Shown here piece after piece: positions 41,763-61,890 of a DNA stretch of 64,000 bases. The first letter of the stretch is position 1. Every line of letters starts with the position of its first letter. The stretch lies in IMG/VR virus record IMGVR_UViG_2579778842_000017, positions 1-64,000 of that record; one strand, 5' to 3'. The translations under genes were made by a program, and so were the position numbers. The notes beneath the pieces are model-generated. The model was given only the letters and a program-made list of their open reading frames with translations, was not told where the DNA came from and did not search any database. The DNA comes from a virus (Duplodnaviria > Heunggongvirae > Uroviricota > Caudoviricetes).

Positions 41763-42093
41763 ATCAGCAGCAGAGCGCAAAGCCGCTCAGAGAGCCAGAC
41801 AAGCTGCATCTGGTGTGCGTAAGCTGGAGATTGTGCTTGATGCTCAGGAAATTGAAATGCTGGAGCGTAACTGTGCCACGCGTCGCCCCGGGCGTGCGCC
41901 TTACGAATTTGGTGAGTATATAGCGTTACTGATCCGCCAGGATGATGCACGCGTGCACGGGCGTATAAAATCGATCAGCAGAAAACGTTGCGGTAAGTGC
42001 GGCGAGAGAGTTCCTGTGAATTCATGCCCGTGTAATGGTGACTCGCAATGCTGGGTGACTAAAGGCTGGCATGAAACGAAATTAATAGTGTGA
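41755..42093 (+). CDS. Small basic protein with C-terminal Cys cluster (zinc-finger-like), last gene before the second terminase
   Basis: 112 aa; basic helical N-terminus, CGKCGERVPVNSCPCNGDSQC; stop codon lies inside the GTGACATGTCAC palindrome. Confidence 0.5.
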   Translation: MAKSAAERKAAQRARQAASGVRKLEIVLDAQEIEMLERNCATRRPGRAPYEFGEYIALLIRQDDARVHGRIKSISRKRCGKCGERVPVNSCPCNGDSQCWVTKGWHETKLIV

Positions 42094-42101
42094 CATGTCA
42101 C
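42090..42101. repeat. Palindrome GTGACATGTCAC (copy 1 of 3)
   Basis: perfect 12-bp palindrome at the junction between early-left operon and second virion module. Confidence 0.6.
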
Positions 42102-42142
42102 GAGTAGATTATGCATGATGAATTTGATGGGTTTTGAATACT

Positions 42143-42168
42143 GCCGCCAACTATGGCGGCTTTATTTT
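42143..42168 (+). terminator. Rho-independent terminator
   Basis: GCCGCCAACTATGGCGGC then TTTATTTT. Confidence 0.65.
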
Positions 42169-42211
42169 GCATGGTACTATTACCACAACGGTAACTATTA
42201 CCACGGTGGTT

Positions 42212-42808
42212 ATGATGCCTGCTGAACCTAAAACCTATAAACGCAAATCAACGCAATTTAAGCCACTAACAGCAATGCAGGAGGCTTATTGCCAGTCATA
42301 CATCAAAACGCCTGAAAACCAGACTCAGGCAGCGATTAACGCAGGATTCTCCCCAAATACAGCGGCAGTTAAAGCCAGTGTCATGATGCGCGATGAACGC
42401 ATTCAAAAACGGATTGCCGAGCTGATGGAGGAGCGCAACAAACGAATGCGCGTCAGTGCTGATTACGTTCTCATGCGCCTGGTGGAGATCGACCAGATGG
42501 ACGTGATTGATATCCTCAACGACGATGGGAGTCTTAAGCCAATCCGCGAGTGGCCGAAAATCTGGCGCACTACGCTTAGTGGCTTTGATCTGTCATCGAC
42601 CATCATGAACATGAACGAGGATTCGATAGAGACAATCCTCAAAAAAATTAAATGGCCTGACAAGATGAAGAACCTCGAACTGATTGGTAAGCACGTCGAC
42701 GTTAACGCGTTCAAAGAGCGCCTGGAGGTTTCCGGCACGGTCACCATCGCCGACCGCATGGCCGCCGCCCGGCGCCGCGTCATAGAGCAGGCTGGTGGTG
42801 AAGAATGA
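42212..42808 (+). CDS. Terminase small subunit (second virion module)
   Basis: about 200 aa from MMPAEPKTYKRK, directly upstream of and overlapping TerL; ORF track extends to a TTG at 42134. Confidence 0.7.
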   Translation: MMPAEPKTYKRKSTQFKPLTAMQEAYCQSYIKTPENQTQAAINAGFSPNTAAVKASVMMRDERIQKRIAELMEERNKRMRVSADYVLMRLVEIDQMDVIDILNDDGSLKPIREWPKIWRTTLSGFDLSSTIMNMNEDSIETILKKIKWPDKMKNLELIGKHVDVNAFKERLEVSGTVTIADRMAAARRRVIEQAGGEE

Positions 42809-44280
42809 CAGCCGCAGCCATGTCGCCGGAAGAGCAACTCGTCGAGGATATCGCCTCGTTCACGTATGACCCGCTGGGCTATGCGCTGTATGCGTTTCCG
42901 TGGGGCGAGGAAGGCACAGAGCTGGCGCACGCCACCGGTCCGCGTAAGTGGCAGGCAGACGCATTCCGCGAGATACGCGATCACCTGCAGAACCCGGCGA
43001 CGCGTCACCAGCCGTTGATGCTGGCCCGCGCATCCGGCCACGGCATCGGCAAGTCAGCTTTCATCTCAATGCTGATTAACTGGGGCATGTCCACTTGCGA
43101 GGATTGTAAGGTCGTGGTGACCGCCAACACCGACAACCAGCTACGAACGAAGACCTGGCCGGAAATTATCAAGTGGTCGAACCTTGCTATCACGAAAGAC
43201 TGGTTTACCTGTACCGCTACCGCGATGTACAGCAATGACCCTGGGCACGACAAGCGGTGGCGAGCTGACGCAATCCCCTGGTCTGAGCACAACACTGAGG
43301 CATTCGCCGGATTACACAATGAGCGCAAACGCATCATCGTGGTATTCGATGAAGCGTCGAACATTGCGGATCTGGTGTGGGAAGTTGCTGAGGGTGCGCT
43401 TACGGACGAAGACACTGAGATTATCTGGGTGGCGTTCGGAAACCCGACACGTAACACCGGGCGTTTCCGCGAATGTTTCCGCAAATATAAACACCGCTGG
43501 AAAACTGCACAGATTGACAGCCGGACGGTGGAAGGTACTAACAAGCAGCAATTACAGAAATGGGTTGATGACTACGGGGAAGACAGCGACTTCGTTAAAG
43601 TCCGTGTGCGCGGCATATTTCCTGATGCATCTGAATTGCAGTTTATCCCTACCGGTCTTACTGACGAGGCAATGAAACGGGTGGTAACTGCTGCGCAGGT
43701 GGCACATGCTCCGGTGATAATCGGCGTTGACCCGGCATACTCCGGCGTTGATGACGCTGTGATATACCTGCGGCAGGGGCTGCACAGTAAGGTGCTGTGG
43801 ACTGGCAACAAGACCACTGACGATCTGATAATGGCGAAGCGTATCGCTGACTTTGAAGACCAGTACCAGGCTGACGCAGTGTTCATCGACTTCGGTTACG
43901 GAACCGGTCTGAAATCAATCGGTGACGGATGGGGTCGTACATGGCAACTTGTTCCGTTCGGTGGCGCGTCTACTGACCCGCAGATGCTCAACAAGCGTGG
44001 GGAGATGTTCAACTCATGCAAGACATGGCTGAGGCTGGGCGGCATGCTGGATGACCAGGAAACAGCGGACGACCTGTCTGCGGCAGAGTACAAAGTTCGA
44101 GTGGACGGTAAAATCGTTATCGAACCGAAGGAAGATATCAAGGAGCGGCTTGGGCGTTCGCCTGGTAAAGGCGATGCGCTACTGCTGACGTTTGCTTTCC
44201 CGGTGTCAAAGCGCCTGCGACTTCCCGGGCAGCAGAACCAGCAAGGCAAGGCCATCACAGATTACGATCCCTATGCTTAA
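42805..44280 (+). CDS. Terminase large subunit (second virion module)
   Basis: 491 aa; Walker A-like ARASGHGIGKS, nuclease-like C-terminal half. Confidence 0.85.
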   Translation: MTAAAMSPEEQLVEDIASFTYDPLGYALYAFPWGEEGTELAHATGPRKWQADAFREIRDHLQNPATRHQPLMLARASGHGIGKSAFISMLINWGMSTCEDCKVVVTANTDNQLRTKTWPEIIKWSNLAITKDWFTCTATAMYSNDPGHDKRWRADAIPWSEHNTEAFAGLHNERKRIIVVFDEASNIADLVWEVAEGALTDEDTEIIWVAFGNPTRNTGRFRECFRKYKHRWKTAQIDSRTVEGTNKQQLQKWVDDYGEDSDFVKVRVRGIFPDASELQFIPTGLTDEAMKRVVTAAQVAHAPVIIGVDPAYSGVDDAVIYLRQGLHSKVLWTGNKTTDDLIMAKRIADFEDQYQADAVFIDFGYGTGLKSIGDGWGRTWQLVPFGGASTDPQMLNKRGEMFNSCKTWLRLGGMLDDQETADDLSAAEYKVRVDGKIVIEPKEDIKERLGRSPGKGDALLLTFAFPVSKRLRLPGQQNQQGKAITDYDPYA

Positions 44281-44330
44281 TCCGCTTGAGGGGATAATGT
44301 CGTTGATATCCTCTGATGAGGATAAAACAA

Positions 44331-44354
44331 AGCCAGCTCATAGGCTGGCTGTTT
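44331..44354 (+). terminator. Rho-independent terminator after TerL
   Basis: AGCCAGCTCATAGGCTGGCT followed by GTTTGTG. Confidence 0.5.
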
Positions 44355-44366
44355 GTGATATGTCAC
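44355..44366. repeat. Palindrome GTGATATGTCAC (copy 2, one mismatch)
   Basis: immediately after the TerL terminator. Confidence 0.5.
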
Positions 44367-44370
44367 GGTG

Positions 44371-44742
44371 TTATTGCTCGCTTAACTTCTGCTTCAGCAA
44401 GTAACCTTCAAGCATCCAGATTTTGTTTACAGCATTCTGTCGGGCAATCTTCCGACCAATTTCTGCATCAAAGTTTTCCGGGCTTGCACAGGCGCTCTCT
44501 CCGGTGACGGTGAAGCCGTTGCGCAGCACCAGGACGCAGAACGTCAGCAGAGAAAGTGATTCGTGCGGCTGGTAGTTTACCTCTCCGCCAGTATGTTTCG
44601 CTTTTATGGCTACGCCAAAGGCACCATCTTCTGCTGTGAAATATGCCTCCTGAGCAATAATGCTCTCGATATGGTCTGGCGTAACGCGCGGCGCGGCTAA
44701 ACCTTTAGCCTGAATTTCAGATTCAATGTCTTTGTCACTCAT
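44371..44742 (-). CDS. Hypothetical moron protein between terL and portal
   Basis: 123-aa minus-strand ORF inserted in an otherwise plus-strand virion operon. Confidence 0.6.
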   Translation of the reverse strand: MSDKDIESEIQAKGLAAPRVTPDHIESIIAQEAYFTAEDGAFGVAIKAKHTGGEVNYQPHESLSLLTFCVLVLRNGFTVTGESACASPENFDAEIGRKIARQNAVNKIWMLEGYLLKQKLSEQ

Positions 44743-44943
44743 AGTCTAATCTCACCTTAAAAATGCCCGGCGAACCGGGCGAACTGGAAGCAATGAGTTA
44801 TGCCTTCCGTGGCTGTACGGGTTTACAGCATGAAGTCATCGCAATGGCGTCCTGCTGTAAAAAGGGCGGTGATAGTCCTTCAAGGGAAACCATCACCGCC
44901 AAGCCCCTGGAACTTCTGGCATCACGGTCCTTAGGCGTGATTC

Positions 44944-45020
44944 TGGCGTGGCATGCAGGATTCGAACCTGCGACCAACCGCTTAGAAGGCGGTTGCTCTG
45001 TCCGACTGAGCTAATGCCAC
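44944..45020 (-). tRNA. Phage-borne tRNA-Arg (anticodon UCU)
   Basis: minus strand reads GTGGCATTAGCTCAGTCGGACAGAGCAACCGCCTTCTAAGCGGTTGGTCGCAGGTTCGAATCCTGCATGCCACGCCA: 7-bp acceptor stem, anticodon loop CTTCTAA, 3' CCA. Confidence 0.8.
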
Positions 45021-45447
45021 AACGCTGAGAGCACTTAGCCTGTTAAGGCACCACACTTTGTCGCGGCTCCATAAATGCTCTCATCGTTGTACCCTCGTCT
45101 CTTCCGAGGCGTCACACCGAATCGCCGGGATGGTGAATCCCCGTGCGCGGCATAAAACCGCTCGACTTGCACATTCCGGCTACCTGGTTCGTTTGCCCGA
45201 GCAAGGGAGGGTGCCCCTTAAACGTATCCAGACCGCTATCGGCGCATGTGCCATACGCCGTACTGCTCAAAATAAAAGCTCACTCCACCTGTTCAATTTA
45301 ACGACAAGCCAGTCAGGTTAATAACAGGAATGCACTCTATGCTTACCTGAAAGGTAATAATTCGTGCGTTAAATGTCAACTACCTACGATAAATAAATCA
45401 TATGTGGTTAAATTGGTAATAATTTAATTGCGTACGGAGTCATTGAT

Positions 45448-45654
45448 ATGTGCATGGGTAGCTCACCATCAGTGCCTGCAACACCAGAAGTTCAGGCAGC
45501 ACCACAGGAGCAGGATGCCGCCGTTGTTGATGCCCGCGACGAAGAAACTCGTCGCCGTCGCGCTGCTGCTGGTCGTAGTTCTACGCTGCTTACCGGTTCT
45601 CAGGGCGACACATCAACCGCTAATACCAGCGGTAAAACGCTGCTTGGTCAGTAA
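45448..45654 (+). CDS. Small hypothetical protein upstream of portal
   Basis: 68 aa; GGAGTCATTGA-ATG initiation region nearly identical to that of the portal gene. Confidence 0.4.
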   Translation: MCMGSSPSVPATPEVQAAPQEQDAAVVDARDEETRRRRAAAGRSSTLLTGSQGDTSTANTSGKTLLGQ

Positions 45655-45668
45655 CCGGAGTCATTGAA

Positions 45669-47348
45669 ATGGCGGAAACAACTAAAGAGCGATTGAACAA
45701 ACAGTTCGCACAACTTGAAAGCGAGCGTCAGTCGTTCGAGCCGCACTGGCGCGAGTTGAGTGATTACATCAACCCGCGTGGTTCCCGCTTTCTGACTTCT
45801 GAGGTCAACCGTAACGATCGACGCAATACACGCATTATTGATTCGACCGGGACTATGGCGGCGCGCACTCTCGCCAGCGGCATGATGTCAGGCATCACAA
45901 GCCCCGCGCGTCCGTGGTTTCGCCTGGCTACGCCAGATCCTGAAATGATGGATTATGGCCCTGTTAAGTTGTGGCTTGAGGCGGTGCAGAACCGCATGAA
46001 CGATATGTTCAATAAGTCGAATCTCTATCAGTCGCTGCCGCAGTTATACGGAAGCCTCGGCACATACAGCACTGGTGCAATGGCAGTGCTGGAGGATGAC
46101 GAGGACATCATTCGCACAATGCCATTCACGATAGGCAGTTACTACCTGGCTAACTCACCTCGTGGCAGTGTGGACACCTGTTTTCGCAAGTTCTCTATGA
46201 CTGTTCGTCAGCTTGTTCAGGAGTTCGGGCTAAATAACGTCAGCGAATCCGTAAAAAGCATGTGGGAAAGCGGCACCTACGAGAAGTGGATTGAAGTGAT
46301 GCATTCGGTTTACCCGAACATTGACCGCGATACATCGAAGCTGGATAGCAAGAACAAGCCATTCAAATCGGTTTATTACGAGGTTGGTGGCGATAACGAC
46401 AAGTTGTTGCGTGAGTCCGGATTCGATGAGTTTCCAATTATGGCTCCGCGCTGGGAAGTTAACGGCGAAGATGTTTATGGATCATCATGCCCGGGCATGC
46501 TGGCGCTTGGACCTGTTAAGGCATTGCAGCTTCTCCAGAAGCGCAAGTCGCAGTTGATTGATAAAGCCACCAATCCGCCGATGGTTGCTCCGATTTCCCT
46601 CAAGAATCAGCGTGCCTCCCTTCTTCCTGGCGACATCACGTATATCGATCAGATTACTGGTCAGGATGGTTTCAGGCCTGCTTATCTGGTTAACCCCAGT
46701 ACAGCAGATTTGGTGGCAGACATTCAGGACACTCGTCAAATCATTAACAGCGCCTACTTTGTCGATCTGTTCATGATGTTGCAGAACATCAATACCCGCT
46801 CGATGCCTGTTGAAGCGGTGATCGAAATGAAAGAAGAAAAACTTCTGATGTTGGGGCCGGTTCTGGAGCGTCTGAACGACGAATGTCTTAATCCTCTCAT
46901 TGACCGCGCTTTCTCGATGATGGTGCGTAAAAACATGTTGCCGCCACCGCCTGACGCGATGGAAGGCATGCCCCTGAAGGTCGAATACATTTCCGTCATG
47001 GCTCAGGCGCAGAAGTCTATCGGCCTGTCCAGTCTGGCGTCCACGGTTAACTTCATTGGTCAACTTGCGCAAGCGAAACCAGAAGCTCTCGACAAACTCA
47101 ACGTTGATCAGGCGATCGATGCATTCGCTGATATGTCCGGAGTGTCTCCAACCGTCATTGTTCCGCAGGAACAGGTTGAGCAGGCTCGCCAGCAACGGGC
47201 ACAGCAACAACAGCAGCAACAAATGATGGCCATGGGGATGGCGGCGGCACAGGGTGCCAAGACGCTAAGCGAAGCTAAAACTTCGGATCCGAGTGTTTTG
47301 TCAGCTATGGCGAATGCAGTTAGTGGTCAGGGTGGGCAATCACAATGA
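45669..47348 (+). CDS. Portal (head-tail connector) protein, T7-supergroup-like
   Basis: 559 aa; C-terminal QQQQQQMMAMGMAAAQGAKT...AMANAV resembles T7 gp8 C-terminus; follows TerL. Confidence 0.75.
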   Translation: MAETTKERLNKQFAQLESERQSFEPHWRELSDYINPRGSRFLTSEVNRNDRRNTRIIDSTGTMAARTLASGMMSGITSPARPWFRLATPDPEMMDYGPVKLWLEAVQNRMNDMFNKSNLYQSLPQLYGSLGTYSTGAMAVLEDDEDIIRTMPFTIGSYYLANSPRGSVDTCFRKFSMTVRQLVQEFGLNNVSESVKSMWESGTYEKWIEVMHSVYPNIDRDTSKLDSKNKPFKSVYYEVGGDNDKLLRESGFDEFPIMAPRWEVNGEDVYGSSCPGMLALGPVKALQLLQKRKSQLIDKATNPPMVAPISLKNQRASLLPGDITYIDQITGQDGFRPAYLVNPSTADLVADIQDTRQIINSAYFVDLFMMLQNINTRSMPVEAVIEMKEEKLLMLGPVLERLNDECLNPLIDRAFSMMVRKNMLPPPPDAMEGMPLKVEYISVMAQAQKSIGLSSLASTVNFIGQLAQAKPEALDKLNVDQAIDAFADMSGVSPTVIVPQEQVEQARQQRAQQQQQQQMMAMGMAAAQGAKTLSEAKTSDPSVLSAMANAVSGQGGQSQ

Positions 47349-47641
47349 CAGATTACGAAGACGATCAACTGAAAGAAGAAAACGCCCGTAAGCAACGTGA
47401 CATGGCACAGCGTGAAATTGATGACATTCGCTTTGTCATGAGCAGTGAACAGGGGCGTCGCGTTGTCTGGTCTGTGCTGGAGAAAGGCCGTGTGTTTTCC
47501 GCTATCTCTCCGATGGATGCTATGGCAATGGCATTTAATGAGGGGCAACGCAATCTGGCGCTGGAACTGTTTCAGCGCGTTATGGCGCATTGCCCTGAAC
47601 AGTATTTGAAGATGGCCAAAGAGGCCAGTGAACAGGAGTGA
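47345..47641 (+). CDS. Hypothetical head-module protein
   Basis: 98-aa ORF overlapping portal stop. Confidence 0.5.
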   Translation: MTDYEDDQLKEENARKQRDMAQREIDDIRFVMSSEQGRRVVWSVLEKGRVFSAISPMDAMAMAFNEGQRNLALELFQRVMAHCPEQYLKMAKEASEQE

Positions 47642-48339
47642 TCATGAATTTATTTGAGCGTTTGCTGTATCGCCGTCTTTGCAATGAGCAACCAGTCGAT
47701 GGTGGAGCAGCTCCGGCTGCGTCAGAACCATCAGCGCCTGCAGGTGATAACCATGCTCCAGTTGGTGATCCATCACAACAAGAAGGTGATAAGCCGCAAC
47801 CTGTTGCTGATGGCGATAAACCTGCTGATGACAAAAAGTCTGAAAGCGATAAGCAGGGTGAAAAAAAGGACGGCGATAAACCGGATGGTGCGCCGGAGAA
47901 GTACGAGTTTCAGGCTGCCGAAGGCGTAGAGCTGGATACAGAAGCGTTGAAGGAATTCGAGCCGGTGGCGCGAGAACTAAACCTGACCAACGAGCAAGCG
48001 CAAAAGCTGGTTGATGCTTATCCGAAGATTCTGGCAGGTGTTCAGCAGCGCCAGGCAGAAGCCTGGCAGAAAACAACCGAGCAGTGGGCTGCTGATGTAA
48101 AAGCTGACAAAGAAATCGGTGGCGACAAGTTGATTTCTAACCTTAGCGCCGCACAGCGTGCGCTTGACCAGTTCGGGACACCTGAACTCAAAGAATATCT
48201 GAACACCACCGGGCTGGGTAATCACCCTGATCTGGTCAAAACGTTCGTGAAAATCGGAAAGGCGATGTCTGAAGATGGCATGGTCACCGGTGGTAATGAA
48301 GGCCAGCGTAGTGCGGCCGAAGTGCTCTATGGCAAATAA
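47638..48339 (+). CDS. Putative scaffolding protein
   Basis: 233 aa, acidic Pro/Ala/Asp-rich N-terminal region then helical part; between portal and capsid. Confidence 0.55.
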   Translation: MIMNLFERLLYRRLCNEQPVDGGAAPAASEPSAPAGDNHAPVGDPSQQEGDKPQPVADGDKPADDKKSESDKQGEKKDGDKPDGAPEKYEFQAAEGVELDTEALKEFEPVARELNLTNEQAQKLVDAYPKILAGVQQRQAEAWQKTTEQWAADVKADKEIGGDKLISNLSAAQRALDQFGTPELKEYLNTTGLGNHPDLVKTFVKIGKAMSEDGMVTGGNEGQRSAAEVLYGK

Positions 48340-48347
48340 GAGAGGAA

Positions 48348-49340
48348 ATGACAATGGCTGTTAAAGGCTTAACTGCGCTAACGCTGGCTGACTGGGGTAA
48401 GCGCGTCGATCCAAACGGGAAAGTCGATAAGATTATCGAGCTTCTCGGTCAAACTAACCCGATCCTTCAGGATATGCCTTTTGTCGAAGGGAACCTTCCT
48501 ACCGGACACCGAACCACCATTCGTTCTGGTTTACCTTCAGCTACCTGGCGTTTGCTGAACTATGGCGTACAGCCAAGCAAATCAACCACAGTGCAGGTAA
48601 CCGATTCCGTTGGCATGCTGGAAACCTATGCTGAAGTCGATAAGTCACTGGCTGATCTGAACGGCAATACCGCCGAATTCCGCCTGTCTGAAGACCGCGC
48701 ATTTATTGAAGCGATGAATCAGCAGATGGCGCAGACGCTATTTTATGGTGATTCCAGCGTTAACCCTCAGCAGTTTATGGGACTGTCCTCCCGCTATTCC
48801 AGCCTGTCTGCGGGTAATGCTCAGAACATCATTGATGCTGGTGGCACGGGTACAGATAACACCTCCATCTGGTTAGTGGTGTGGGGCGAAAACACCGTGC
48901 ATGGCATCTTCCCGAAAGGGCAGAAGGCTGGCATTCAGATGGAAGATAAAGGCCAGGTGACACTGGAAGATGTTAATGGCGGCAAGTACGAAGGCTACCG
49001 TACCCATTACAAATGGGATAACGGACTTGCTCTGCGTGACTGGCGTTATGTTGTTCGCATTGCAAACATCGATGTCAGCAATCTTTCAGAACCTTCCTCT
49101 GCCGCAAATATTGCGAAGTTGATGGTTAAAGCACTGCATCGCATTCCAAATCGTGGCATGGGTCGCCCGGTGTTCTACATGAACCGCACTGTAGGCCAGG
49201 CTCTTGATCTGCAATCTCTGGAGAAAACATCTCTGGCGATCAGCGTAAAAGAGACAGAAGGCGAGTGGTGGACTTCATTCCGTGGTGTACCAATCCGTGA
49301 AACTGATGCGCTTCTGGAAACAGAAGCCCGCGTGGTGTAA
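48348..49340 (+). CDS. Major capsid protein (second virion module)
   Basis: 330 aa, strong RBS, position after scaffold. Confidence 0.7.
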   Translation: MTMAVKGLTALTLADWGKRVDPNGKVDKIIELLGQTNPILQDMPFVEGNLPTGHRTTIRSGLPSATWRLLNYGVQPSKSTTVQVTDSVGMLETYAEVDKSLADLNGNTAEFRLSEDRAFIEAMNQQMAQTLFYGDSSVNPQQFMGLSSRYSSLSAGNAQNIIDAGGTGTDNTSIWLVVWGENTVHGIFPKGQKAGIQMEDKGQVTLEDVNGGKYEGYRTHYKWDNGLALRDWRYVVRIANIDVSNLSEPSSAANIAKLMVKALHRIPNRGMGRPVFYMNRTVGQALDLQSLEKTSLAISVKETEGEWWTSFRGVPIRETDALLETEARVV

Positions 49341-49391
49341 CGCCTGTTATTAACCTGTGGGTCGTAACAGACCCACTAATGGAGAAAGAAG

Positions 49392-49829
49392 ATGATCACC
49401 GACAAACTGTTGATGTTCTCCGAAGCTCAGGCGGTTACGAATACCGCGGCTTCTACTGACGTAATCGATCTCGGTCCAATTGACGGAAAACGTCGTGATA
49501 TCGGCGTGGGTTACCCGCTTGAGTTTTGGGCGCTGGTTAACACAGCCGCCGCGGCAAGCGGTAATGCAACTGTAAACATCCAGTTGCAGACGAGTGAGAA
49601 TAACAGCTCATGGACCACTATTTATGATAGTGGCGCACTGGCAAAGACCGCCCTGACAGCAGGTAAACGAGTTGTTTCTGCAAAGGTGCCTGCCGGTGTT
49701 CAGCGATATCTGCGTGTTAACTACTCCGTCGCAACCGGCCCACTAACGGCTGGCGAATTCACTGCTGGTATCAGTCTTGATGTTGATGCCAATACGCCGT
49801 ATCCGATCCGCTCAAAAGTAACTGGTTAA
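49392..49829 (+). CDS. Putative capsid decoration / minor head protein
   Basis: 145 aa beta-rich, immediately after capsid gene. Confidence 0.45.
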   Translation: MITDKLLMFSEAQAVTNTAASTDVIDLGPIDGKRRDIGVGYPLEFWALVNTAAAASGNATVNIQLQTSENNSSWTTIYDSGALAKTALTAGKRVVSAKVPAGVQRYLRVNYSVATGPLTAGEFTAGISLDVDANTPYPIRSKVTG

Positions 49830-49830
49830 G

Positions 49831-54634: not shown

Positions 54635-57147
54635 TGCCAGTCGTACCAACAGTATCCGGACGTCAGGTTGAGAGCCGTGGAGTTCAGTCAGCAGGCTTGC
54701 AGACGTTTTCTCAGCCAGGTATTGGTGATGCTTTTGTTCGGGCAGGGACAGAGGCAATTGATGTTTTGGGGCAGGCAAAACAGCGTGCCAATATCGCTCT
54801 GGCTCAGGAGGCATCTCTTAACCTCAGTCAGATAAGCAGCGATCTGCTGAATAATCCTGAAACAGGATTGCTTAACCTGAAAGGGAAAAATGCTATTGGA
54901 AAAGGCCATGAGTATACGCAGCAGTTTGATGCTCAGGTCGAACAACTGGCTATGTCGCTGCCGGATGAACAGGCTCGTAATGCTTTCATGCAGCAGGCGC
55001 AGCAGCAGCGCATTCAGTTCACTACGCAGGCCGGGCGACACGAGATAGGGCAAATTAATGCCTACGAAGAAGGCCAGTTTCAGGCGACACTGCTGAACAA
55101 TGGTAAAAATGCCGCAGCATTGTATGGCGACAACGCCGCATACGTATTGGCTAACAAGCAAACTTTCCAGCAAATTGAGGAGTACGGTGTTGCACATGGC
55201 TGGAGCAACGAGCAAATCCAGGCCAAGAAAATCGAGTTTAAAGAGAAGGTTGCTGATGCTGCATTGTCCCAGTGGTCGGCAAACAATGCGACCGCATTCA
55301 TCCAAAGTAATGGCGAGTTAAGTGATACTGCTGCTGGAGCTCGCCGTGCTGTAGCAGATAGTGACTCTTCCGAGCGTGCCCGTGGCATACGCAACAATAA
55401 CCCAGGAAATCTCGAATACAGCAAAACTAATCCGTGGGTAGGCCAGACCGGTGATGATGGTCGATTTGCTAAATTCGAAACACCTGAACACGGGATTCGT
55501 GCATTAGGGCGGAACCTGATGTCGTATCAGAGGCAGGGTATTGATACTGTCAGCGAGATAATTAATCGCTGGGCACCGCCTGCTGATAAAAATGACACTA
55601 TGTCGTATATCAAAGCAGTGTGCGAACAACTTGGCGTTTCTGCTGATGAGCCTCTCGATGCATCTAATCCTGATACCCTGAAGGCGCTTTGTGCAGCCAT
55701 TATCCATCATGAGAACGGTAGCCAGCCATACAGTGATCAGCAGTTAACTGCTGGTGTCAGTGCAGCACTTGGTTTATCAACAATTCCAACCAACACCAAA
55801 CGCTATACCGGTAATGCAGCATTCGATGCGGCATCTCCTGAGGCGCAGGCAAGTTTTATGCGACAGGCGGATCAACTGCGTCGGCAGCAGCAGGCTGAAT
55901 ATAAAACGATGATTGACAGCCAGGTTCGCGATGCGACAGCTGCGTATATGCGTGGCGTTGAATTTCCTAACCCACCTGGTGAGGCTGATTTTATTGCAGC
56001 TTATGGAGTAAGAGAAGGAAACCTGCGATATACCGAGTTCAGAAATACGCAAATCGCCGGACAGTATATAGGCTCTTTCCGCAACATGCCGACAAGCAGC
56101 ATTACAGCATATGTTGAGCAATTACGCCCGGATACTGGTGAGACAGGGGAGGGTTATGCGGCACGAGCCGCTCTTTATGACAACGTTGTGTCGGCTGCAA
56201 GTCAGGTGATAAAGCAGCGACAGGCTGATCCTGTACAGTTCTCTCTTGCCGCCGGACAGGCAAAGCCTATCGACATGAGCAATAAGGATAACTTTGGACA
56301 GAGCGTTGCCTTGCGTGCTGCTCAGGTCAGTGACCTTGCTAAGTCATATGGCACTCCACTGACGTTCTTTTCCAAAGACGAGGCCAATCAGATCGGTGTT
56401 TTCTTTCGTGATGCTCCAGTTTCCCAACAGGCAGCATATCTCGACACCATCAGGCAGAGCACTGGTGGTGGGCAGGTGTATATGTCAGCACTACAGCAGA
56501 TCAGTGCCAACGCTCCATCTGCTGCCGTTGCCGGGATACTGATGGATAAGCCTGGTGGTATTTTGGCAGAAAAAAACTGGTTTAATCCGGATGTTTCCGT
56601 GTCTCCTGAAACCGCTGCGCAGACAATTCTTGCTGGCGCGGCGGCTCGTAAAGGTACTGATGATGCGAAAGGTATTCCGATGCCTAAAGATGCTGATCTT
56701 CGCCTTGAGTTTTCTGACATGGTGAAGGATGCATTTGCTGGTGACGCTCATGGGGCATCAATGGCATACGAGATCGCAAAGGATTATTACGCTGGTGTGA
56801 TGGCGAAAAAAGGCGTGGTATCAGGAGAAATTGACAATGATGTCTGGAAACAGGCTGTTAACGTAGCTACAGGTGGCGTGCATGACTATAACGGAATGGG
56901 GAATGTCCTTTTGCCGTGGGGAATGTCTGCAGAGCAATTCGATAAGCAGGTTAATCAGGCTTGGAATGAACAAGTTGTCGGCTCCGGGATAAAAACACCG
57001 CCTGGTCAGTATGGTTTGCAAAGTTACGGCGATAGTCAGTACCTGGTGAAACTTGGTACTGGTTATCTGCTGAAAGATGATGGTTCTCCCGTTGTTCTTA
57101 ATCTGACACAGAAGCGTCAGAGATTCTCCGGAGATATTCCGCAATGA
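54634..57147 (+). CDS. Large internal virion / ejection protein
   Basis: about 837 aa from MPVVPTVSGRQ (TAATG coupling, GGAGGA RBS); GIRNNNPGNLEY motif. Confidence 0.6.
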   Translation: MPVVPTVSGRQVESRGVQSAGLQTFSQPGIGDAFVRAGTEAIDVLGQAKQRANIALAQEASLNLSQISSDLLNNPETGLLNLKGKNAIGKGHEYTQQFDAQVEQLAMSLPDEQARNAFMQQAQQQRIQFTTQAGRHEIGQINAYEEGQFQATLLNNGKNAAALYGDNAAYVLANKQTFQQIEEYGVAHGWSNEQIQAKKIEFKEKVADAALSQWSANNATAFIQSNGELSDTAAGARRAVADSDSSERARGIRNNNPGNLEYSKTNPWVGQTGDDGRFAKFETPEHGIRALGRNLMSYQRQGIDTVSEIINRWAPPADKNDTMSYIKAVCEQLGVSADEPLDASNPDTLKALCAAIIHHENGSQPYSDQQLTAGVSAALGLSTIPTNTKRYTGNAAFDAASPEAQASFMRQADQLRRQQQAEYKTMIDSQVRDATAAYMRGVEFPNPPGEADFIAAYGVREGNLRYTEFRNTQIAGQYIGSFRNMPTSSITAYVEQLRPDTGETGEGYAARAALYDNVVSAASQVIKQRQADPVQFSLAAGQAKPIDMSNKDNFGQSVALRAAQVSDLAKSYGTPLTFFSKDEANQIGVFFRDAPVSQQAAYLDTIRQSTGGGQVYMSALQQISANAPSAAVAGILMDKPGGILAEKNWFNPDVSVSPETAAQTILAGAAARKGTDDAKGIPMPKDADLRLEFSDMVKDAFAGDAHGASMAYEIAKDYYAGVMAKKGVVSGEIDNDVWKQAVNVATGGVHDYNGMGNVLLPWGMSAEQFDKQVNQAWNEQVVGSGIKTPPGQYGLQSYGDSQYLVKLGTGYLLKDDGSPVVLNLTQKRQRFSGDIPQ

Positions 57148-58946
57148 GTTACTTTGGCCTTAATCCAGTAAACCAGAATCAGCAGCTTGACGAAGCAGCA
57201 TCAAATCCAGCTGGCTTTAACAGCGATGTTGGTTTTTTCGACAATGCTGTAGGAGCGGCATTGTCTGGTTTGTACTCCGGGCTGGTGGCAAAGCCAGATC
57301 AGTTGCTATGGGCAGGGATGGATAAAATCGTATCCCCGATTGCTCAGTTTGTTAACGAAAACACCTCGCTCAATGACACTTCAGTTTCATACATTGCTGA
57401 GCAGAGAAAACTAGCAGAGCAGCAGGTTAAGCGGCTGACGCCTGATGCCGCGACAACCGGAACCGCCGGGCAGGTCCTTTATGGGTTGTTCGATATGGGC
57501 GGGCAGGCTGTTGTCGGTACAACGCTCGGTGGTCCGGTCGGAGGTGCTGCGGCGGTAACTTCGCTACAGGGTTTTTCTGAGTTTGAACGGCTGACAGCAC
57601 AGGGTGTTGATTTCAGGACGGCGCAGGAAGCGGGATTAGTGCAGGGTATTACTGCTGGTGCCGGAACACTGATCCCTATGAGCCTCGGGTTACGTGCTGG
57701 TGGTGCGCTGGCGGAAGGTGTGGCGGCTCAGCTTGCGCGGACGGGTGAAAGTTCAGTGCGACGCGCCGCAGCAACAGCAGTACGTGCAACGCCAGATATT
57801 GCCTATGCCGCAGGTACAAATATTGCGTTCGGTATGGCACAGCGTGGGCTTACTGCAAAAACGCTTCGTGATGGTGGCTATAGCGAAATGGCTAACCAGT
57901 ATGATGTGTTGGATCGACAGGCAATTGCTATTGATGCTGTTCTTGGGGTGGCGTTTGGTGGTGTCGGCAGATTTATTAACTCTCGCGGCGAGTCTACAAG
58001 CGCACCAAATTTTTCACCAGTTGATATTGATGCTGCACTGGCGGCGAATGCCGCTCATCATGCTGAAATTGATATTGCTCCCGGCGTTCCGATCAACGTG
58101 CTTTCGCGTAATTCGCACATTCAGGCTCTGCGAAAAGCCATGTCTGATGTTAGCCAGGGGAGACCTGTAGACGTTGCCAGCATTGTTGAGTCTGCATCTT
58201 TCAGTGAAATTCCTGGGCGCAAGAGTCTGCTGTCTCAGGCAGTTAATGAGGCTCTGTCATCTGTAGATGATGGAGTAACTGCGCGCGCTATAGAAAATCG
58301 GTTGCTTGAAGAACAGGCCGCGCAGCTTTTGTCGCGTGGCGATAGACAGGTTTACCAGTCTGAAATCGCTAATAGCCAACGAATTATTGAAAATCTCACT
58401 GAACAGCGCGCACAAATTCTTGCAGAAGAGCCAACCGGTAGCGGTAAGGCTTTATCTCGTGCTCGATCAGATAAACAGGCCAGACTTCGCGATATTGACC
58501 AACGAATCCGGCAGGCACAAGAACGCCTGGAATTTTCTCGTAACGCGTTGGCGCCGCACGAGCCTGGAGGTCAGTTTTTTGAAGCTCGAGCAGAACTGGC
58601 ACGACGACAGCAGGCAGAAAGTGAACTTAATGCTCAGGCTGTTTCATTCTATAAAACAGCAGAGGTCAGGACGCCAGACGAAGTAGCTCCTTTTGAGCCC
58701 GGTAAGATATTGCAACAGACAGAACAAAAAATGATGGCAGATCCGGCAGGAGATATTGATCTGCGTATAGCTGAAGACTCGCTGCTTGAATCTCCGGACA
58801 TGATAATCACCGTGCTGGATGATGATGGTAATCCACAATCGCGCAGTGCGCGTGAAGTACTGGATGAAGCGAACAGGGAAAGTGAGCAGGCAATACAGGA
58901 TTCCAGCCTGTTTGATGTCGCTGTGGCGTGTTTCTTGAGAGGTTAA
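57144..58946 (+). CDS. Large internal virion / ejection protein
   Basis: 600 aa, Ala/Gly-rich. Confidence 0.6.
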   Translation: MSYFGLNPVNQNQQLDEAASNPAGFNSDVGFFDNAVGAALSGLYSGLVAKPDQLLWAGMDKIVSPIAQFVNENTSLNDTSVSYIAEQRKLAEQQVKRLTPDAATTGTAGQVLYGLFDMGGQAVVGTTLGGPVGGAAAVTSLQGFSEFERLTAQGVDFRTAQEAGLVQGITAGAGTLIPMSLGLRAGGALAEGVAAQLARTGESSVRRAAATAVRATPDIAYAAGTNIAFGMAQRGLTAKTLRDGGYSEMANQYDVLDRQAIAIDAVLGVAFGGVGRFINSRGESTSAPNFSPVDIDAALAANAAHHAEIDIAPGVPINVLSRNSHIQALRKAMSDVSQGRPVDVASIVESASFSEIPGRKSLLSQAVNEALSSVDDGVTARAIENRLLEEQAAQLLSRGDRQVYQSEIANSQRIIENLTEQRAQILAEEPTGSGKALSRARSDKQARLRDIDQRIRQAQERLEFSRNALAPHEPGGQFFEARAELARRQQAESELNAQAVSFYKTAEVRTPDEVAPFEPGKILQQTEQKMMADPAGDIDLRIAEDSLLESPDMIITVLDDDGNPQSRSAREVLDEANRESEQAIQDSSLFDVAVACFLRG

Positions 58947-58951
58947 ATTAA

Positions 58952-61426
58952 ATGAGACAGGAATGTATACAAGCGGTCCAGCAGGCGGCGCAGCGCACGT
59001 TAACGGCGCGAGAAATACAGAACATTGAAGACCGCATTTATCGAAATATGCGCTCCATTGCTCGTGATGACCCGATGTCGTGGAGACAACTTTCCGAATC
59101 AGAGCGGCTATATCGTGCAGCACAATTGGCATCTGAAGAATTACAGCGAGAAGCGGCATTAAAGAAACGTCGTGTGGCCCTCACTATAGCCGCACGTCAG
59201 AGATTGGATAAATTTATCAATAGCTATCAAGGGGCTGATGGGAAACTTGGCGCTCTTAACCGTACTATTGCTTTTAATGCAGACGGTAAATCGAATTTCC
59301 TCTCTGTTGAATCCAGAACAAAAGCCACCCGTGATTATGCATTGAGTCAATTGCAGGAGGCATTCGAAGCAGTTGATCCTCGCTTTTTTGGTCTGTTTGA
59401 AGATGAAGCGGGCGTACGTGACCTGGTATATGAAATGCGGGGGCAAAATACTGGCAATGCTAAAGCAAGAAAAGGTGCTAAGGCGTGGAGAGAAGTGACA
59501 GAGCTACTGCGCCGCCGGTTTAATGATGCTGGTGGGGACATTGGCTATCTCGAAAACTGGGGGATCCCTCAACATCATTCTATGGAAAAGGTTGGGGCGG
59601 TATCAAAGGATAAGTGGGTTAGCGATGTTATAGGTAAGCTGGATCGCAAATATTATATCCGAGCCGATGGACAACTGATGAACGATGCCGAGTTGTCTGC
59701 ATTTCTTGGAGAGGCTTATAACACGATCGCTACTGGTGGGCTGAATAAGCTTACTGATACCGGAATGCGAATTTCCGGCGCACGTGCTAACCGTGGTAAT
59801 GCATCACGACAGATACATTTCAAAGATGCAGATTCCTATCTGCAATATCAGCAACTTTATGGCGATCGCTCTCTATGGGAAATCATGGTCGGTCACCTGG
59901 AAGGTATCAGTAAAGATATTGCACTGGTGGAAACATATGGTCCAAACCCCGATCATGTTTTCCGCTCCCTTCTTGATCAGGTTAAGGCAGAAACGGCAAC
60001 AGCTAACCCGAGTAAAACCGGTAAAGTCGAGCGGCTGGCGAACAAAACAGAGAACCTGTACAACTTTATTTCCGGAAAGACACAGCCTGTAGCGAATCCG
60101 CACATCGCGCGATGGTCTGACAATATCCGCAACTGGCTGGTTGCCAGCAGACTCGGATCCGCGTTGCTGTCATCGTTCTCTGATCTTGGAACCATGTATC
60201 TGTCTGCGAAGGTTACCAACCTTCCAATGAACCAGTTATTCCGCAACCAGCTTGAAGCTATGGACCCAACGAACCGTACAGAACTTGCGCGGGCGCGCCG
60301 CGCTGGTCTGGCGATGGAATCTCTACTTGGCAGCGTTAACCGCTGGGCGATGGATAATATGGGGCCGTCAGTGTCTCGTTGGGCGGCAACGGCGGTAATG
60401 CGTGCCAGTGGGCTTACAGCATGGTCAGATGCGCACAAGCGCGCCTATGGCGTAACCATGATGGGAAGCCTGGGAGAAGTAGTGTCACGGACACCAGACC
60501 TTCGTAGCCTCGATGACTATGATTTTCGTATCCTGAAAAGCAAAGGGATTACTGACACAGACTGGAGCGTATGGAAGCTGGCGCAACAGGAGGACTGGGG
60601 GAACGGTAATAATACGATGCTGACACCGGAAAGCATTATGCGTATCCCTGATTCAGCAGTTAAACATCTTGGTGAGCCTGAACGTGTGAAATTTGAGGCA
60701 ATGCGTAAACTGCTCGGTGCCGTAACTGAAGAAGTTGATATGGCTGTTATTACACCGGGCGCACGTGAACGGATGTTCGTAGGGTCTGGTCTTCAGCGTG
60801 GAACATGGAAAGGTGAATTAACGAGAAGTGTTTTCCTGTTTAAATCGTTCCCTATCTCGGTAGTTATGCGTCACTGGCATAGAGCTATGGGGATGCCGTC
60901 TGCTGGTGGGCGTGCGGCATATATAGCAACGTTTTTAGCAAGCACAACCATGCTTGGTGCTCTTTCCATGCAGATTACTGATCTTATTAATGGGAGAAAT
61001 CCAAAAGAAATGACCGGTGACAACATGGTTAAATTCTGGATAAATGCATTTTTAAAAGGTGGTGGGGCAGGGTTGTATGGTGATTTTCTTTTCTCTGACC
61101 ACACCAGGTACGGGAGCGGCGCACTAGCGTCGATGCTTGGCCCGGTAGCTGGTCTGGTTGATGACGTAGTGAAGATTGCTCAGGGCATACCGTTAAATGC
61201 TGTGGAAGGGAAGAATGAGCAGACTGGTGGTGATCTGGTTAAGCTTGGGAAAGGTTTGATGCCTGGTGCGAATCTCTGGTACTTGAAGGCGGCTCTCGAT
61301 CACATGATCTTTAATCAGATGCAGGAGTATTTTTCACCAGGCTATTTGCGTAAAATGGAGCAACGTTCGAAGAAAGAGTTTAACCAGACATACTGGTGGC
61401 GACCTCAGGATGTCACTCCGCAATAA
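58952..61426 (+). CDS. Large internal virion / ejection protein
   Basis: 824 aa, last large gene of the virion operon. Confidence 0.6.
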   Translation: MRQECIQAVQQAAQRTLTAREIQNIEDRIYRNMRSIARDDPMSWRQLSESERLYRAAQLASEELQREAALKKRRVALTIAARQRLDKFINSYQGADGKLGALNRTIAFNADGKSNFLSVESRTKATRDYALSQLQEAFEAVDPRFFGLFEDEAGVRDLVYEMRGQNTGNAKARKGAKAWREVTELLRRRFNDAGGDIGYLENWGIPQHHSMEKVGAVSKDKWVSDVIGKLDRKYYIRADGQLMNDAELSAFLGEAYNTIATGGLNKLTDTGMRISGARANRGNASRQIHFKDADSYLQYQQLYGDRSLWEIMVGHLEGISKDIALVETYGPNPDHVFRSLLDQVKAETATANPSKTGKVERLANKTENLYNFISGKTQPVANPHIARWSDNIRNWLVASRLGSALLSSFSDLGTMYLSAKVTNLPMNQLFRNQLEAMDPTNRTELARARRAGLAMESLLGSVNRWAMDNMGPSVSRWAATAVMRASGLTAWSDAHKRAYGVTMMGSLGEVVSRTPDLRSLDDYDFRILKSKGITDTDWSVWKLAQQEDWGNGNNTMLTPESIMRIPDSAVKHLGEPERVKFEAMRKLLGAVTEEVDMAVITPGARERMFVGSGLQRGTWKGELTRSVFLFKSFPISVVMRHWHRAMGMPSAGGRAAYIATFLASTTMLGALSMQITDLINGRNPKEMTGDNMVKFWINAFLKGGGAGLYGDFLFSDHTRYGSGALASMLGPVAGLVDDVVKIAQGIPLNAVEGKNEQTGGDLVKLGKGLMPGANLWYLKAALDHMIFNQMQEYFSPGYLRKMEQRSKKEFNQTYWWRPQDVTPQ

Positions 61427-61435
61427 GGAACAACA

Positions 61436-61849
61436 ATGAAGGAATTATTGCTGTTATCGGTATTTTTGATATCCGCTTGCTCGACATCCTATGATGTTTA
61501 TGACGGTGTTGATAAGGCATATTGCGACAAAGTTAAAATGGATTTTTCTCTTGCCAAGACGGCGAAGGATAGTTGTATTGATCACTACGTCAAGACTTAT
61601 ACCAAGCCAGCCTCATCGGCATCTGATATTGCTGAAGGTGCTGTGTTTGAGTGTAACAAGGTGATATCCATCGCAGCGAGTTCTTCATACGATGCTGCTG
61701 TATGTGCAATGGCTGAAAGAAACGGCATGTCAGTGCAAAAAATTAATAGCATGATAAGCAGTAATGACGAAGCCAAAATAAGAACTGATATCAGCTCGGT
61801 GAAAAAAGATGCCATGAACAGAGTTGTAAAATATCAGTCATCTTTATAA
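61436..61849 (+). CDS. Lipoprotein (candidate superinfection-exclusion protein)
   Basis: 137 aa, signal peptide with lipobox LISAC; lower GC than neighbours. Confidence 0.6.
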   Translation: MKELLLLSVFLISACSTSYDVYDGVDKAYCDKVKMDFSLAKTAKDSCIDHYVKTYTKPASSASDIAEGAVFECNKVISIAASSSYDAAVCAMAERNGMSVQKINSMISSNDEAKIRTDISSVKKDAMNRVVKYQSSL

Positions 61850-61852
61850 GTC

Positions 61853-61864
61853 GTGACATGTCAC
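61853..61864. repeat. Palindrome GTGACATGTCAC (copy 3)
   Basis: perfect copy right after the lipoprotein stop and before a terminator. Confidence 0.6.
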
Positions 61865-61890
61865 AGGCCGCTTTCGCGGCCTTGTTTTTA
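61865..61890 (+). terminator. Rho-independent terminator ending the virion operon
   Basis: AGGCCGCTTTCGCGGCCT then TGTTTTT. Confidence 0.7.

What the first reader, a model, noticed from the sequence alone, without database searches (positions are those of the whole stretch)
42090..61890. Second full virion module lacking integrase, lysis and immunity genes, colinear with the P22-like early-left operon
After the early-left operon (which ends without a recognisable xis or att repeat) comes a complete, different podovirus morphogenesis set: TerS, TerL, portal with T7-like C-terminus, scaffold, capsid, adaptor, nozzle, three large internal proteins. No tailspike or fibre, lysis, replication or integrase genes are in the window. 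It may be a tandem prophage, a remnant, or a hybrid or satellite-like arrangement.
Basis: partly seen in the sequence, partly recalled or inferred. Interest (0 to 1): 0.65.

Follow-up and report, generated by a model that had tools for sequence, protein, structure and literature searches.

The report
phiV10-like prophage half fused to P22-like prophage
The "second virion module" is the ordinary late-gene half of a well-known phiV10/epsilon15-type E. coli prophage, joined in this draft contig to a P22-like prophage by one crossover inside a shared gene; the join is probably an assembly chimera, or otherwise a routine prophage-prophage inversion.

Summary
Window 42134-61849 carries a complete podovirus head, neck and core gene set with no integrase, lysis or immunity genes in the window.

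It is not a new element. It is 97.4% identical and colinear to phage phiV10 (Uetakevirus). From 39778 to 64000 it is 99.6% identical to prophages that normally sit between guaA and yfgI. In those prophages the early-right operon runs straight into TerS, the integrase lies far to the left, and the tail fibre and lysis genes lie just past this window's end.

The true boundary is inside the ead/Ea22 gene, not at 42090. Both phage types share a 577-bp segment (39778-40354) that differs at 17 SNPs. The window carries P22-like alleles at the first 12 and phiV10-like alleles at the last 5, so the crossover lies in 40015-40192.

The source is the 2014 MiSeq/DNAStar draft of porcine ETEC strain W25K. 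The chimeric Ead protein occurs on that one contig only, and 0 of 5426 complete E. coli genomes hold the junction. The predicted reciprocal chimera was not found, and intact parental versions of both prophages exist elsewhere.

My estimates: chimeric contig about 0.6, genuine ~180-kb argW-guaA inversion about 0.3, satellite or novel hybrid phage about 0.01. Low interest.

The parts
1009..1083 (+). argW tRNA-Arg(CCU). Its 3' end, 1069-1084 (CTGCAGGGGACACCAT), is the attL core of the P22-like prophage.
   Evidence: ARAGORN. The same 16-bp core is repeated at attR in the intact prophages L023 and UMNK88 L003. It occurs only once in the window.
1209..2393 (+). intS-type integrase of the P22-like prophage (called as 382 aa from 1245), converging on the tailspike gene.
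   Evidence: Annotated intS in UMNK88 and others. Pfam Phage_integrase.
2398..32831 (-). Body of the P22-like (Sf6/HK620/IME10-type) prophage: tailspike, immI region, ejection proteins, coat, scaffold, portal, TerL/TerS, lysis, Q, nin, DnaB-intein, O, cII and cro.
   Evidence: 100% identical to the intact prophage contig JAJARH010000001.1 over window 1-14098, and 99.97% over 18865-40354.
32912..39551 (+). cI repressor, N, and the P22-like early-left operon: Ral, TolA-like 322 aa, cIII, Kil, Rad52, SSB, HNH, exonuclease, Abc, DUF2737 and DUF7446.
   Evidence: Gene calls and Pfam. 0 mismatches to the parental-type locus L023 from 29297 to 40192.
39538..40353 (+). Chimeric ead/Ea22-like gene (271 aa). 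The 5' part is of P22-like type and the 3' end is of phiV10-like type.
   Evidence: allele switch. The exact protein is on one contig only among 153 billion gene positions.
39778..40354 (.). 577-bp segment shared by both parental prophage types, with 17 differing sites (97% identity).
   Evidence: the window carries P22-type alleles at 39783-40014 (12 sites) and phiV10-type alleles at 40193-40329 (5 sites).
40015..40192 (.). Crossover interval: 178 bp identical in both parents.
40358..42093 (+). Tail of the phiV10-like early-right operon: 171-aa protein, DUF551 (40870-41412), NinX (41409-41762) and the p55-type transcriptional regulator (41755-42093).
   Evidence: 0 mismatches to guaA-type prophages L004, L002 and L006 from 40015 to 43000. 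phrog_536 transcriptional regulator. PhiV10p55 is 98.8% identical.
42134..61849 (+). phiV10/epsilon15-type virion (late) module: TerS, TerL, portal, protease, capsid, decoration proteins, tail adaptor, nozzle, internal core proteins and a 137-aa protein.
   Evidence: 97.4% identical and colinear to phiV10 bases 1-19338. PHROG and Pfam assignments.
44944..45020 (-). Phage-borne tRNA-Arg(UCU) between TerL and the portal gene.
   Evidence: Annotated at the same place in the UMNK88 and PF9285 prophages.
61888..64000 (-). Leftward accessory genes of the phiV10-like prophage (126/146/55-aa ORFs, BRO-N protein 62873-63583, and an 85-aa gene cut by the window end). These precede the tail-fibre gene.

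Best explanation
Two ordinary, well-known E. coli prophages are joined in this contig.

The left part, up to about 40.1 kb, is a P22-like prophage integrated at argW. The right part, from about 40.1 kb to past the window end, is the distal half of a phiV10/epsilon15-type (Uetakevirus) prophage. That half comprises the end of the early-right operon, the p55 regulator, the late virion operon, and (beyond the window) the fibre, lysis genes and attR. Its normal home is between guaA and yfgI.

In that phage type the order is int, early-left, repressor, cro, replication, ead, DUF551, NinX, p55, TerS. A virion operon colinear with 'ea'-type early genes is therefore simply its standard layout.

The join is one crossover within a 178-bp identical stretch of a 577-bp, 97%-identical piece of the ead/Ea22 gene that both prophages carry. 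I think the join was most likely made by the assembler. The source is a 2014 MiSeq/DNAStar de novo draft of ETEC W25K. The assembler would have merged the two ead copies and exited into the wrong flank. On this reading, in the real chromosome the P22-like prophage ends ead-166aa-...-TorI-attR-dsdC, and the phiV10-like prophage is intact at guaA.

Shown: the identity of both elements, the position of the crossover, and the uniqueness of the junction. Inferred: that the join is an artefact.
For: **Identity of the module**
- phiV10 is 97.4% identical over 19.3 kb and colinear.
- Window 39778-64000 is 99.6% identical to the guaA|yfgI prophage of UMNK88.
- All 24 contigs read that carry the parental Ead363 fall into three gene contexts, and the displayed representative of each shows the normal guaA-type layout: two run guaA-int-...-Ead363-171aa-DUF551-NinX-p55-TerS, and the third starts within the replication genes.

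**The crossover**
- 17 diagnostic SNPs switch cleanly from P22-type (12 sites) to phiV10-type (5 sites).
- There are 0 mismatches to L023 on the left (29297-40192) and 0 mismatches to L004 on the right (40015-43000).

**Intact parents exist**
- JAJARH010000001.1 and CAJHJK010000001.1 carry the same P22-like prophage (100% over 1-14098, 99.97% over 18865-40354). It ends Ead271-166aa-75-55, and CAJHJK010000001.1 (L023) continues TorI-dsdC.

**Uniqueness of the junction**
- 0 of 5426 complete E. coli genomes cover the junction.
- The chimeric Ead is on one contig only.
- The predicted reciprocal chimera is absent from 15 billion proteins.

**Source and assembly method**
- The source is a 153-contig Nextera XT/MiSeq draft assembled with DNAStar.
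- Contig JANPYO010000003.1 is 100% identical to window 47144-64000, but it starts at window-equivalent 41,983, and the exact chimeric Ead is indexed only on the W25K draft contig, so not in that assembly.

**Prior for a real inversion**
- Documented prophage-mediated inversions in E. coli O157 use repeats of at least 5 kb at 98% identity or more, straddling Ter (PMC8743559). Here the repeat is 577 bp and both loci lie about 180 kb apart.
Against: - No reads or long-read assembly of W25K could be examined. The complete genome CP091038.1 is not in the searchable collections.
- A clean allele switch is also exactly what true homologous recombination would give.
- The contig has no N or ambiguity codes.
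- MiSeq reads are long enough to span the 178-bp core, so a careful assembler could have phased it correctly.
- That GCA_021534865.2 is W25K is only my inference, from accession proximity and 100% identity.
- The right flank of the source contig itself beyond 64 kb was never seen directly.
Confidence: 0.6

Rival explanations
1. The join is real. RecA, or the phage Rad52/RecT recombinases, recombined the inverted ead copies of the two resident prophages and inverted the roughly 180 kb between argW and guaA.

This would create two hybrid prophages that are locked in place. The one seen here would be attL(argW)-intS-whole P22-like prophage minus xis/attR, followed by phiV10-like p55, late operon, lysis genes and attR(guaA). 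Its reciprocal would be guaA-int-phiV10 early and replication genes-ead'-166aa-TorI-attR(argW)-dsdC. Neither could excise, because each has mismatched att sites.
For: - In UMNK88, a related O149 porcine ETEC, the two prophages sit at argW (ead on +, 2.855 Mb) and guaA (ead on -, 3.033 Mb). They are inverted relative to each other, as an inversion requires.
- The allele switch is clean and lies within a 178-bp identical core.
- The ead 3' segment is a frequent natural mosaic joint: 53 IMG/VR proviruses carry it with at least 25 allele combinations, and there are 293 Ead clusters.
- Both prophages encode recombinases: Rad52, SSB, exonuclease and Abc here, and RecT in the guaA type.
- Prophage-bounded inversions are well documented (PMC8743559).
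Against: - The junction is seen in one short-read draft only.
- The reciprocal chimera was not found, and the 90% cluster of Ead363 holds only two sequences.
- The homology is only 577 bp at 97%, against at least 5 kb in documented cases.
- From my own knowledge of the E. coli map, argW and guaA lie on the same replichore, so the inversion would be asymmetric and probably costly.
- A 100%-identical second assembly lacks the chimeric protein.
Confidence: 0.3
2. Nested or tandem insertion. A circular phiV10-like genome integrated into the ead gene of the P22-like prophage by a single homologous crossover. The whole phiV10-like genome (fibre, lysis, attP, int, early genes, replication, ead') would then follow, and after it the P22-like right end.
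For: It would produce the same left junction as seen. The contig is long enough, running 57 kb past the window.
Against: - The contig 100% identical to window 47144-64000 runs from the lysis genes into the attR core and yfgI, not into attP-int.
- The reciprocal chimeric Ead that this model also needs is absent.
- All 24 Ead363 contigs read fall into three contexts, each with the ordinary guaA-type prophage layout and none nested in a P22-like prophage.
Confidence: 0.04
3. A phage satellite, or a genuinely new hybrid phage, that carries a virion module but depends on the P22-like prophage for regulation, replication and lysis.
For: Only the appearance of the window: the module is colinear with the PL operon, and the window holds no int, lysis or immunity genes for it.
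Against: - The module is 97-100% identical to autonomous phiV10-type phages and prophages that have their own int, repressor, replication and lysis genes.
- The combined element, with two full virion sets spanning about 68 kb from attL(argW) to the inferred attR, exceeds either capsid's genome size (phiV10 is 39.1 kb; P22-likes are about 39-40 kb).
- No satellite hallmark genes are present.
Confidence: 0.01

Closest known systems
Escherichia phage phiV10 (NC_007804; Uetakevirus) and the O157 typing phages 9/10, ZX5 and phiv142-3
   Same: 97.4% nucleotide identity and full colinearity from p55/TerS through the last core protein. The gene order is the same, including gp49-like, tRNA-Arg, portal, protease, gp7 capsid, tail proteins and core proteins.
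   Different: The window lacks phiV10's fibre-oac-lysis-int-early-left-repressor-replication half. The accessory genes after the core proteins differ (137-aa protein, BRO-N variant).
phiV10-like prophage at guaA|yfgI of E. coli UMNK88 (NC_017641, 3,004,9xx-3,042,9xx) and about 288 other complete genomes
   Same: 99.6% identical to window 39778-64000, with identical 171-aa, DUF551, NinX and p55 genes.
   Different: There the module is preceded by its own int, RecT/exonuclease, repressor, cro, DnaT-like/P replication genes and a 363-aa Ead. Here those are replaced by a P22-like prophage.
P22-like (Sf6/HK620/IME10/CUS-3 type) argW prophages, for example JAJARH010000001.1 and CAJHJK010000001.1
   Same: The left 40 kb of the window is 99.97-100% identical, including argW attL, intS, tailspike, DnaB-intein, cI and the early-left operon.
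   Different: Intact copies continue Ead271-166aa-75-55-TorI-attR-dsdC. The window switches to phiV10-like sequence inside ead.
Prophage-bounded large chromosomal rearrangements in E. coli O157:H7 (Fitzgerald et al. 2021, PMC8743559)
   Same: If the join is real, the mechanism is the same: homologous recombination between inverted repeats in two prophages, inverting the interval and swapping prophage halves.
   Different: Those use repeats of at least 5 kb at 98% identity or more, flanking Ter, and are proven by long reads or optical maps. Here the repeat is 577 bp at 97%, the loci are about 180 kb apart, and there is no long-read support.

Membership tests
Uetakevirus (epsilon15/phiV10-like) late module | High nucleotide identity and colinearity with phiV10 across TerS through the core proteins | tested here: met
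   97.4% over 19,341 aligned bases in a single block. Gene-by-gene match to the phiV10 annotation.
Uetakevirus (epsilon15/phiV10-like) late module | Characteristic proteins: T7-type portal, gp7 capsid, gp10 staple, Bbp16 cement, T7_gp14-like core protein, large core proteins | tested here: met
   Pfam PF12236, PF20911, PF21628, PF21190 and PF24072. PHROGs.
Complete phiV10-like prophage | Own integrase next to guaA, and the 17-bp att core ATTGAGTGGGAATGATT at both ends | tested here: not met
   The core is absent from the window and there is no P4-type int. In normal copies both are present.
Complete phiV10-like prophage | Own repressor/cro and DnaT-like/P replication genes upstream of ead | tested here: not met
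   These are replaced by P22-like sequence left of 40015.
Complete phiV10-like prophage | Tail fibre, holins, endolysin, spanin and attR downstream of the core proteins | tested here: inconclusive
   They lie outside the window. They are present in a contig 100% identical to window 47144-64000, but the source contig itself was not seen beyond 64 kb.
P22-like argW prophage | attL at tRNA-Arg(CCU) with the 16-bp core and intS, plus a P22-type virion, lysis, nin, replication and immunity set | tested here: met
P22-like argW prophage | Right end with TorI/Xis and the attR core before dsdC | tested here: not met
   No second core in the window. Intact relatives have it.
Prophage-prophage recombination (inversion) junction | Junction inside a segment shared by both parents, with a single clean switch of parental alleles | tested here: met
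   12 P22-type alleles followed by 5 phiV10-type alleles, with 0 mismatches to each parent on its own side.
Prophage-prophage recombination (inversion) junction | Parental copies in inverted orientation at separate loci in a related genome | tested here: met
   UMNK88 has argW at 2.81-2.86 Mb (+) and guaA at 3.00-3.04 Mb (-).
Prophage-prophage recombination (inversion) junction | Reciprocal junction present in the same genome | tested here: inconclusive
   The predicted reciprocal Ead chimera is absent from the whole protein collection. However, assemblies cannot be queried by name, and a contig break would hide it.
Prophage-prophage recombination (inversion) junction | Support from long reads or an independent assembly | not testable with these tools
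   CP091038.1 is not held. No other assembly carries the junction.
Phage satellite (PICI/P4-like) | Small element with its own int and replication genes and capsid-redirecting genes, lacking a full virion set | tested here: not met
   The module is a full virion set at 97% identity to an autonomous phage, with no int or rep genes of its own.

The most novel reading that the evidence does not exclude
The junction is real in W25K. An inversion has produced two excision-dead hybrid prophages. In the one seen here, the N-antiterminated PL transcript of the P22-like prophage reads through ead-DUF551-NinX-p55 and past the hairpin at 42143-42160 into the Uetakevirus late operon. SOS induction would then express two unrelated podovirus virion sets from one locus. 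The locked P22-like pac system would package the chromosome in situ, in the manner of lateral transduction from argW.
Probability: 0.08. Interest if true: 0.4.

Novelty: already known. Interest (0 to 1): 0.1.

Why it matters
It matters mainly as a caution. A striking "orphan virion module" in a draft genome turns out to be half of a common prophage, spliced to another prophage at a 577-bp shared gene segment.

If the join is an artefact, it shows how mosaic ea-type genes generate chimeric contigs that look like hybrid or satellite elements.

If it is real, it would be one more example of prophage-mediated inversion. It would be unusual only for the short homology and the same-replichore position, and it would create two locked prophages. 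That would be of modest interest for prophage domestication and lateral transduction.

Tried and rejected
**Reaching the source contig beyond 64 kb.** I ran exact-protein look-ups with BRO-N, the 600-aa core protein, the 171-aa protein, DUF7446, DnaB-intein, the tailspike and Ead363. The source place was always merged with 'similar places', so its own right flank was never displayed. I relied instead on the 100%-identical contig L013.

**Looking for W25K's complete genome.** CP091038.1 and NZ_CP091038.1 are not in the E. coli collection. I found no paper linking JANPYO01 or GCA_021534865 to a strain.

**Looking for the reciprocal junction.** The predicted reciprocal Ead is not in the protein collection.

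**Looking for the junction elsewhere.**
- None of the 5426 complete E. coli genomes holds it.
- The IMG/VR scan with a 196-mer found 53 proviruses, none with the window's haplotype.

**Rejected readings.**
- Tandem prophage with its own int to the right, because of the layout of all relatives.
- Satellite.
- att-site duplication within the window.
- Internal repeats within the window as the cause: only 38-45-bp NinX similarities were found.

**Not used.** I did not run the genome-contig scan, because W25K is unlikely to be a species representative.

Full report
**What is in the window**

The window begins with yfdC and tRNA-Arg(CCU) (argW, 1009-1083), followed by an intS integrase. Next comes a complete P22-like prophage read on the minus strand, from tailspike 2398-4098 to cro 32646-32831. 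On the plus strand follow cI (32912-33562), N and an early-left operon.

- tail: tail adaptor and an 823-aa nozzle;
- core: two small and three large internal proteins (Pfam; PHROGs).

No integrase, lysis, repressor or replication gene of that second phage is in the window.

**What the module is**

The module is not a new element. Megablast gives 97.4% identity over one colinear 19.3-kb block to Escherichia phage phiV10 (Uetakevirus), and the same to the O157 typing phages 9/10, ZX5 and phiv142-3. At least 288 complete E. coli genomes carry it.

The phiV10 annotation and the UMNK88 prophage show the normal layout. The order is guaA, attL, int, early-left (RecT/exonuclease), repressor, cro, DnaT-like/P replication, ead/Ea22, DUF551, NinX, p55 regulator, TerS, virion genes, BRO region, tail fibre, holins, endolysin, spanin, attR, yfgI.

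Two consequences follow. First, a virion operon colinear with 'ea'-type early genes is the standard architecture of this phage type. Second, the integrase and immunity genes lie far upstream, while the fibre and lysis genes lie just downstream of where this window stops.

A contig 100% identical to window 47144-64000 (16,857 bp, 0 mismatches) continues with a 675-aa fibre, the lysis cassette, the 17-bp guaA-type att core at window-equivalent 68,525, and yfgI.

**Where the two prophages meet**

UMNK88-type guaA prophages match the window at 99.6% from 39778 to 64000.

An intact P22-like argW prophage is essentially identical to the window's left part. Locus L023 from CAJHJK010000001.1, and loci L029 and L038 from JAJARH010000001.1, give 100% identity over 1-14098 and 99.97% over 18865-40354. 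These prophages run on as Ead271, 166-aa and 75-aa genes, and L023 continues through a 55-aa gene, TorI, attR and dsdC.

The two parental types share only 39778-40354, which is the 3' two-thirds of ead. That is 577 bp with 17 differing sites. The window has the P22-type base at the first 12 sites (39783-40014) and the phiV10-type base at the last 5 (40193-40329). It has zero mismatches to each parent on its own side.

This is a single crossover within 40015-40192. As expected for a prophage that has lost its right end, the 16-bp argW att core occurs only at 1069-1084. The guaA-type core is absent from the window.

**Is the junction real?**

The window is 100% identical to contig JNBX01000102.1 of GCA_000696835.1. 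This is the 2014 draft of porcine ETEC O149:K88 strain W25K. It was made from Nextera XT/MiSeq reads at about 53x coverage and assembled de novo with DNAStar into 153 contigs (PMC4073109).

Several results argue that the junction is not reproduced anywhere else:
- The chimeric 271-aa Ead (KDP16889.1) is found on that one contig only. The parental Ead271 and Ead363 are on 44 and 91 contigs respectively.
- None of 5426 complete E. coli genomes spans the junction.
- The predicted reciprocal chimera is not in the 15-billion-protein collection, and the 90% cluster of Ead363 holds only two sequences.
- All 24 Ead363 contigs read fall into three contexts, each with the normal guaA-type layout.
- GCA_021534865.2 is 100% identical over 16.9 kb. 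It may be the later W25K assembly, but that is only my inference from accession proximity to CP091038. The exact chimeric Ead is not indexed in that assembly, and the matching contig starts at window-equivalent 41,983.

A clean allele switch cannot discriminate between the two readings. A greedy or collapsing assembler that merges two 97%-identical copies and leaves by the wrong flank produces the same pattern as RecA would.

Documented prophage-bounded inversions in E. coli O157 involve repeats of at least 5 kb at 98% identity or more, on either side of Ter (PMC8743559). Here the homology is 577 bp and the loci are about 180 kb apart. From my own knowledge of the E. coli map, argW and guaA lie on the same replichore.

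Other results favour a real event:
- In UMNK88 the two prophages are in the inverted relative orientation that an inversion needs.
- Both encode recombinases.
- The ead 3' segment is plainly a natural mosaic joint. 53 IMG/VR proviruses carry the same 196-mer with at least 25 allele combinations and mostly different flanks, and the Ead family splits into 293 clusters.

I put a chimeric contig at about 0.6 and a true inversion at about 0.3. Nested insertion of a whole phiV10-like genome by a single crossover gets about 0.04, because the identical contig runs into attR-yfgI rather than attP-int. A satellite or new hybrid phage gets about 0.01.

**How it would work if real**

This paragraph is inference. 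The inversion would leave two hybrids with mismatched att sites. The one in the window would also lack xis. Neither could excise.

No plus-strand terminator-like site lies between 38.8 kb and the hairpin at 42143-42160, just after p55. N-modified PL transcription from the P22-like prophage could therefore enter the Uetakevirus late operon. The locked P22-like pac system could package the chromosome in situ. None of this was tested.

**Comparison and novelty**

The module is a member of the phiV10/epsilon15 group by every sequence criterion tested. As a prophage it fails the completeness criteria (own int and att sites, immunity, replication) only because of the junction.

The arrangement corresponds either to a known artefact class or to a known mechanism, prophage-prophage homologous recombination. 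Nothing suggests a new kind of element, so interest is low.

**The decisive check**

The decisive check is simple but outside these tools. Compare window 38-44 kb with the PacBio-based W25K genome CP091038.1 (PMC9603048), or phase the reads across 40014-40193.

Noticed in passing
window 28865-31258 (-): The replicative DnaB helicase of the P22-like prophage is 797 aa. A LAGLIDADG-type insert sits between two DnaB_C matches, which indicates an intein-containing helicase. The exact protein is listed in 71 blocks of the collection, in several different lambdoid contexts.
   Followed up: partly
window 44944-45020 (-): A phage-borne tRNA-Arg(UCU) lies between TerL and the portal gene of the phiV10-like module. 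It overlaps an 83-aa ORF called on the opposite strand. It is conserved in the UMNK88 and PF9285 prophages and in the typing phages.
   Followed up: partly
window 5601-7315: The immI-like region of the P22-like prophage carries an Arc/Mnt-like 82-aa gene followed by a ClpP-family 178-aa gene (5849-6385, +). It also carries a SocA_Panacea-domain 149-aa gene (6866-7315, -) with a 140-aa ORF just downstream (6438-6860, -). The latter pair could be a Panacea-type toxin-antitoxin pair.
   Followed up: no
window 39778-40354; loci L043-L095: The 3' segment of ead/Ea22 is a general mosaic joint. 53 IMG/VR proviruses contain the same 196-mer with at least 25 different combinations of the 17 'parental' SNPs and mostly unrelated flanks. 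L046 has the reverse pattern, phiV10-type followed by P22-type, with the 166-aa gene to its right. Ead homologues with E <= 1e-60 fall into 293 clusters at 90% identity.
   Followed up: partly
L013 (JANPYO010000003.1), window-equivalent 41,983: A 352-kb contig 100% identical to window 47144-64000 starts inside the p55 gene, 1.8 kb to the right of the crossover. This suggests that another repeat ending near the p55|TerS boundary exists in that genome. The cause is unexplained.
   Followed up: no
window 42134-42215: A terminator-like hairpin (42143-42160, GCCGCC...GGCGGC followed by a T-run) lies inside the annotated TTG-start 5' end of TerS. Some gene calls use a shorter 197-aa TerS. The hairpin may be the late-operon terminator on which p55 or antitermination acts.
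   Followed up: no
window 44371-44742 (-) and UMNK88 locus L003 25438-25615: The Gp49/gp66-family gene between TerL and the tRNA in the phiV10-like module shares a 178-bp stretch at 91% identity with the gp49-like gene of UMNK88's P22-like argW prophage. This is another small module shared by the two phage types.
   Followed up: no
window 35089-36111 (+): The early-left operon contains a 322-340-aa highly charged coiled-coil protein rich in E/A/K/R repeats. It is annotated in relatives as 'cell envelope biogenesis protein TolA' or 'coiled-coil domain-containing protein', and has no Pfam hit.
   Followed up: no
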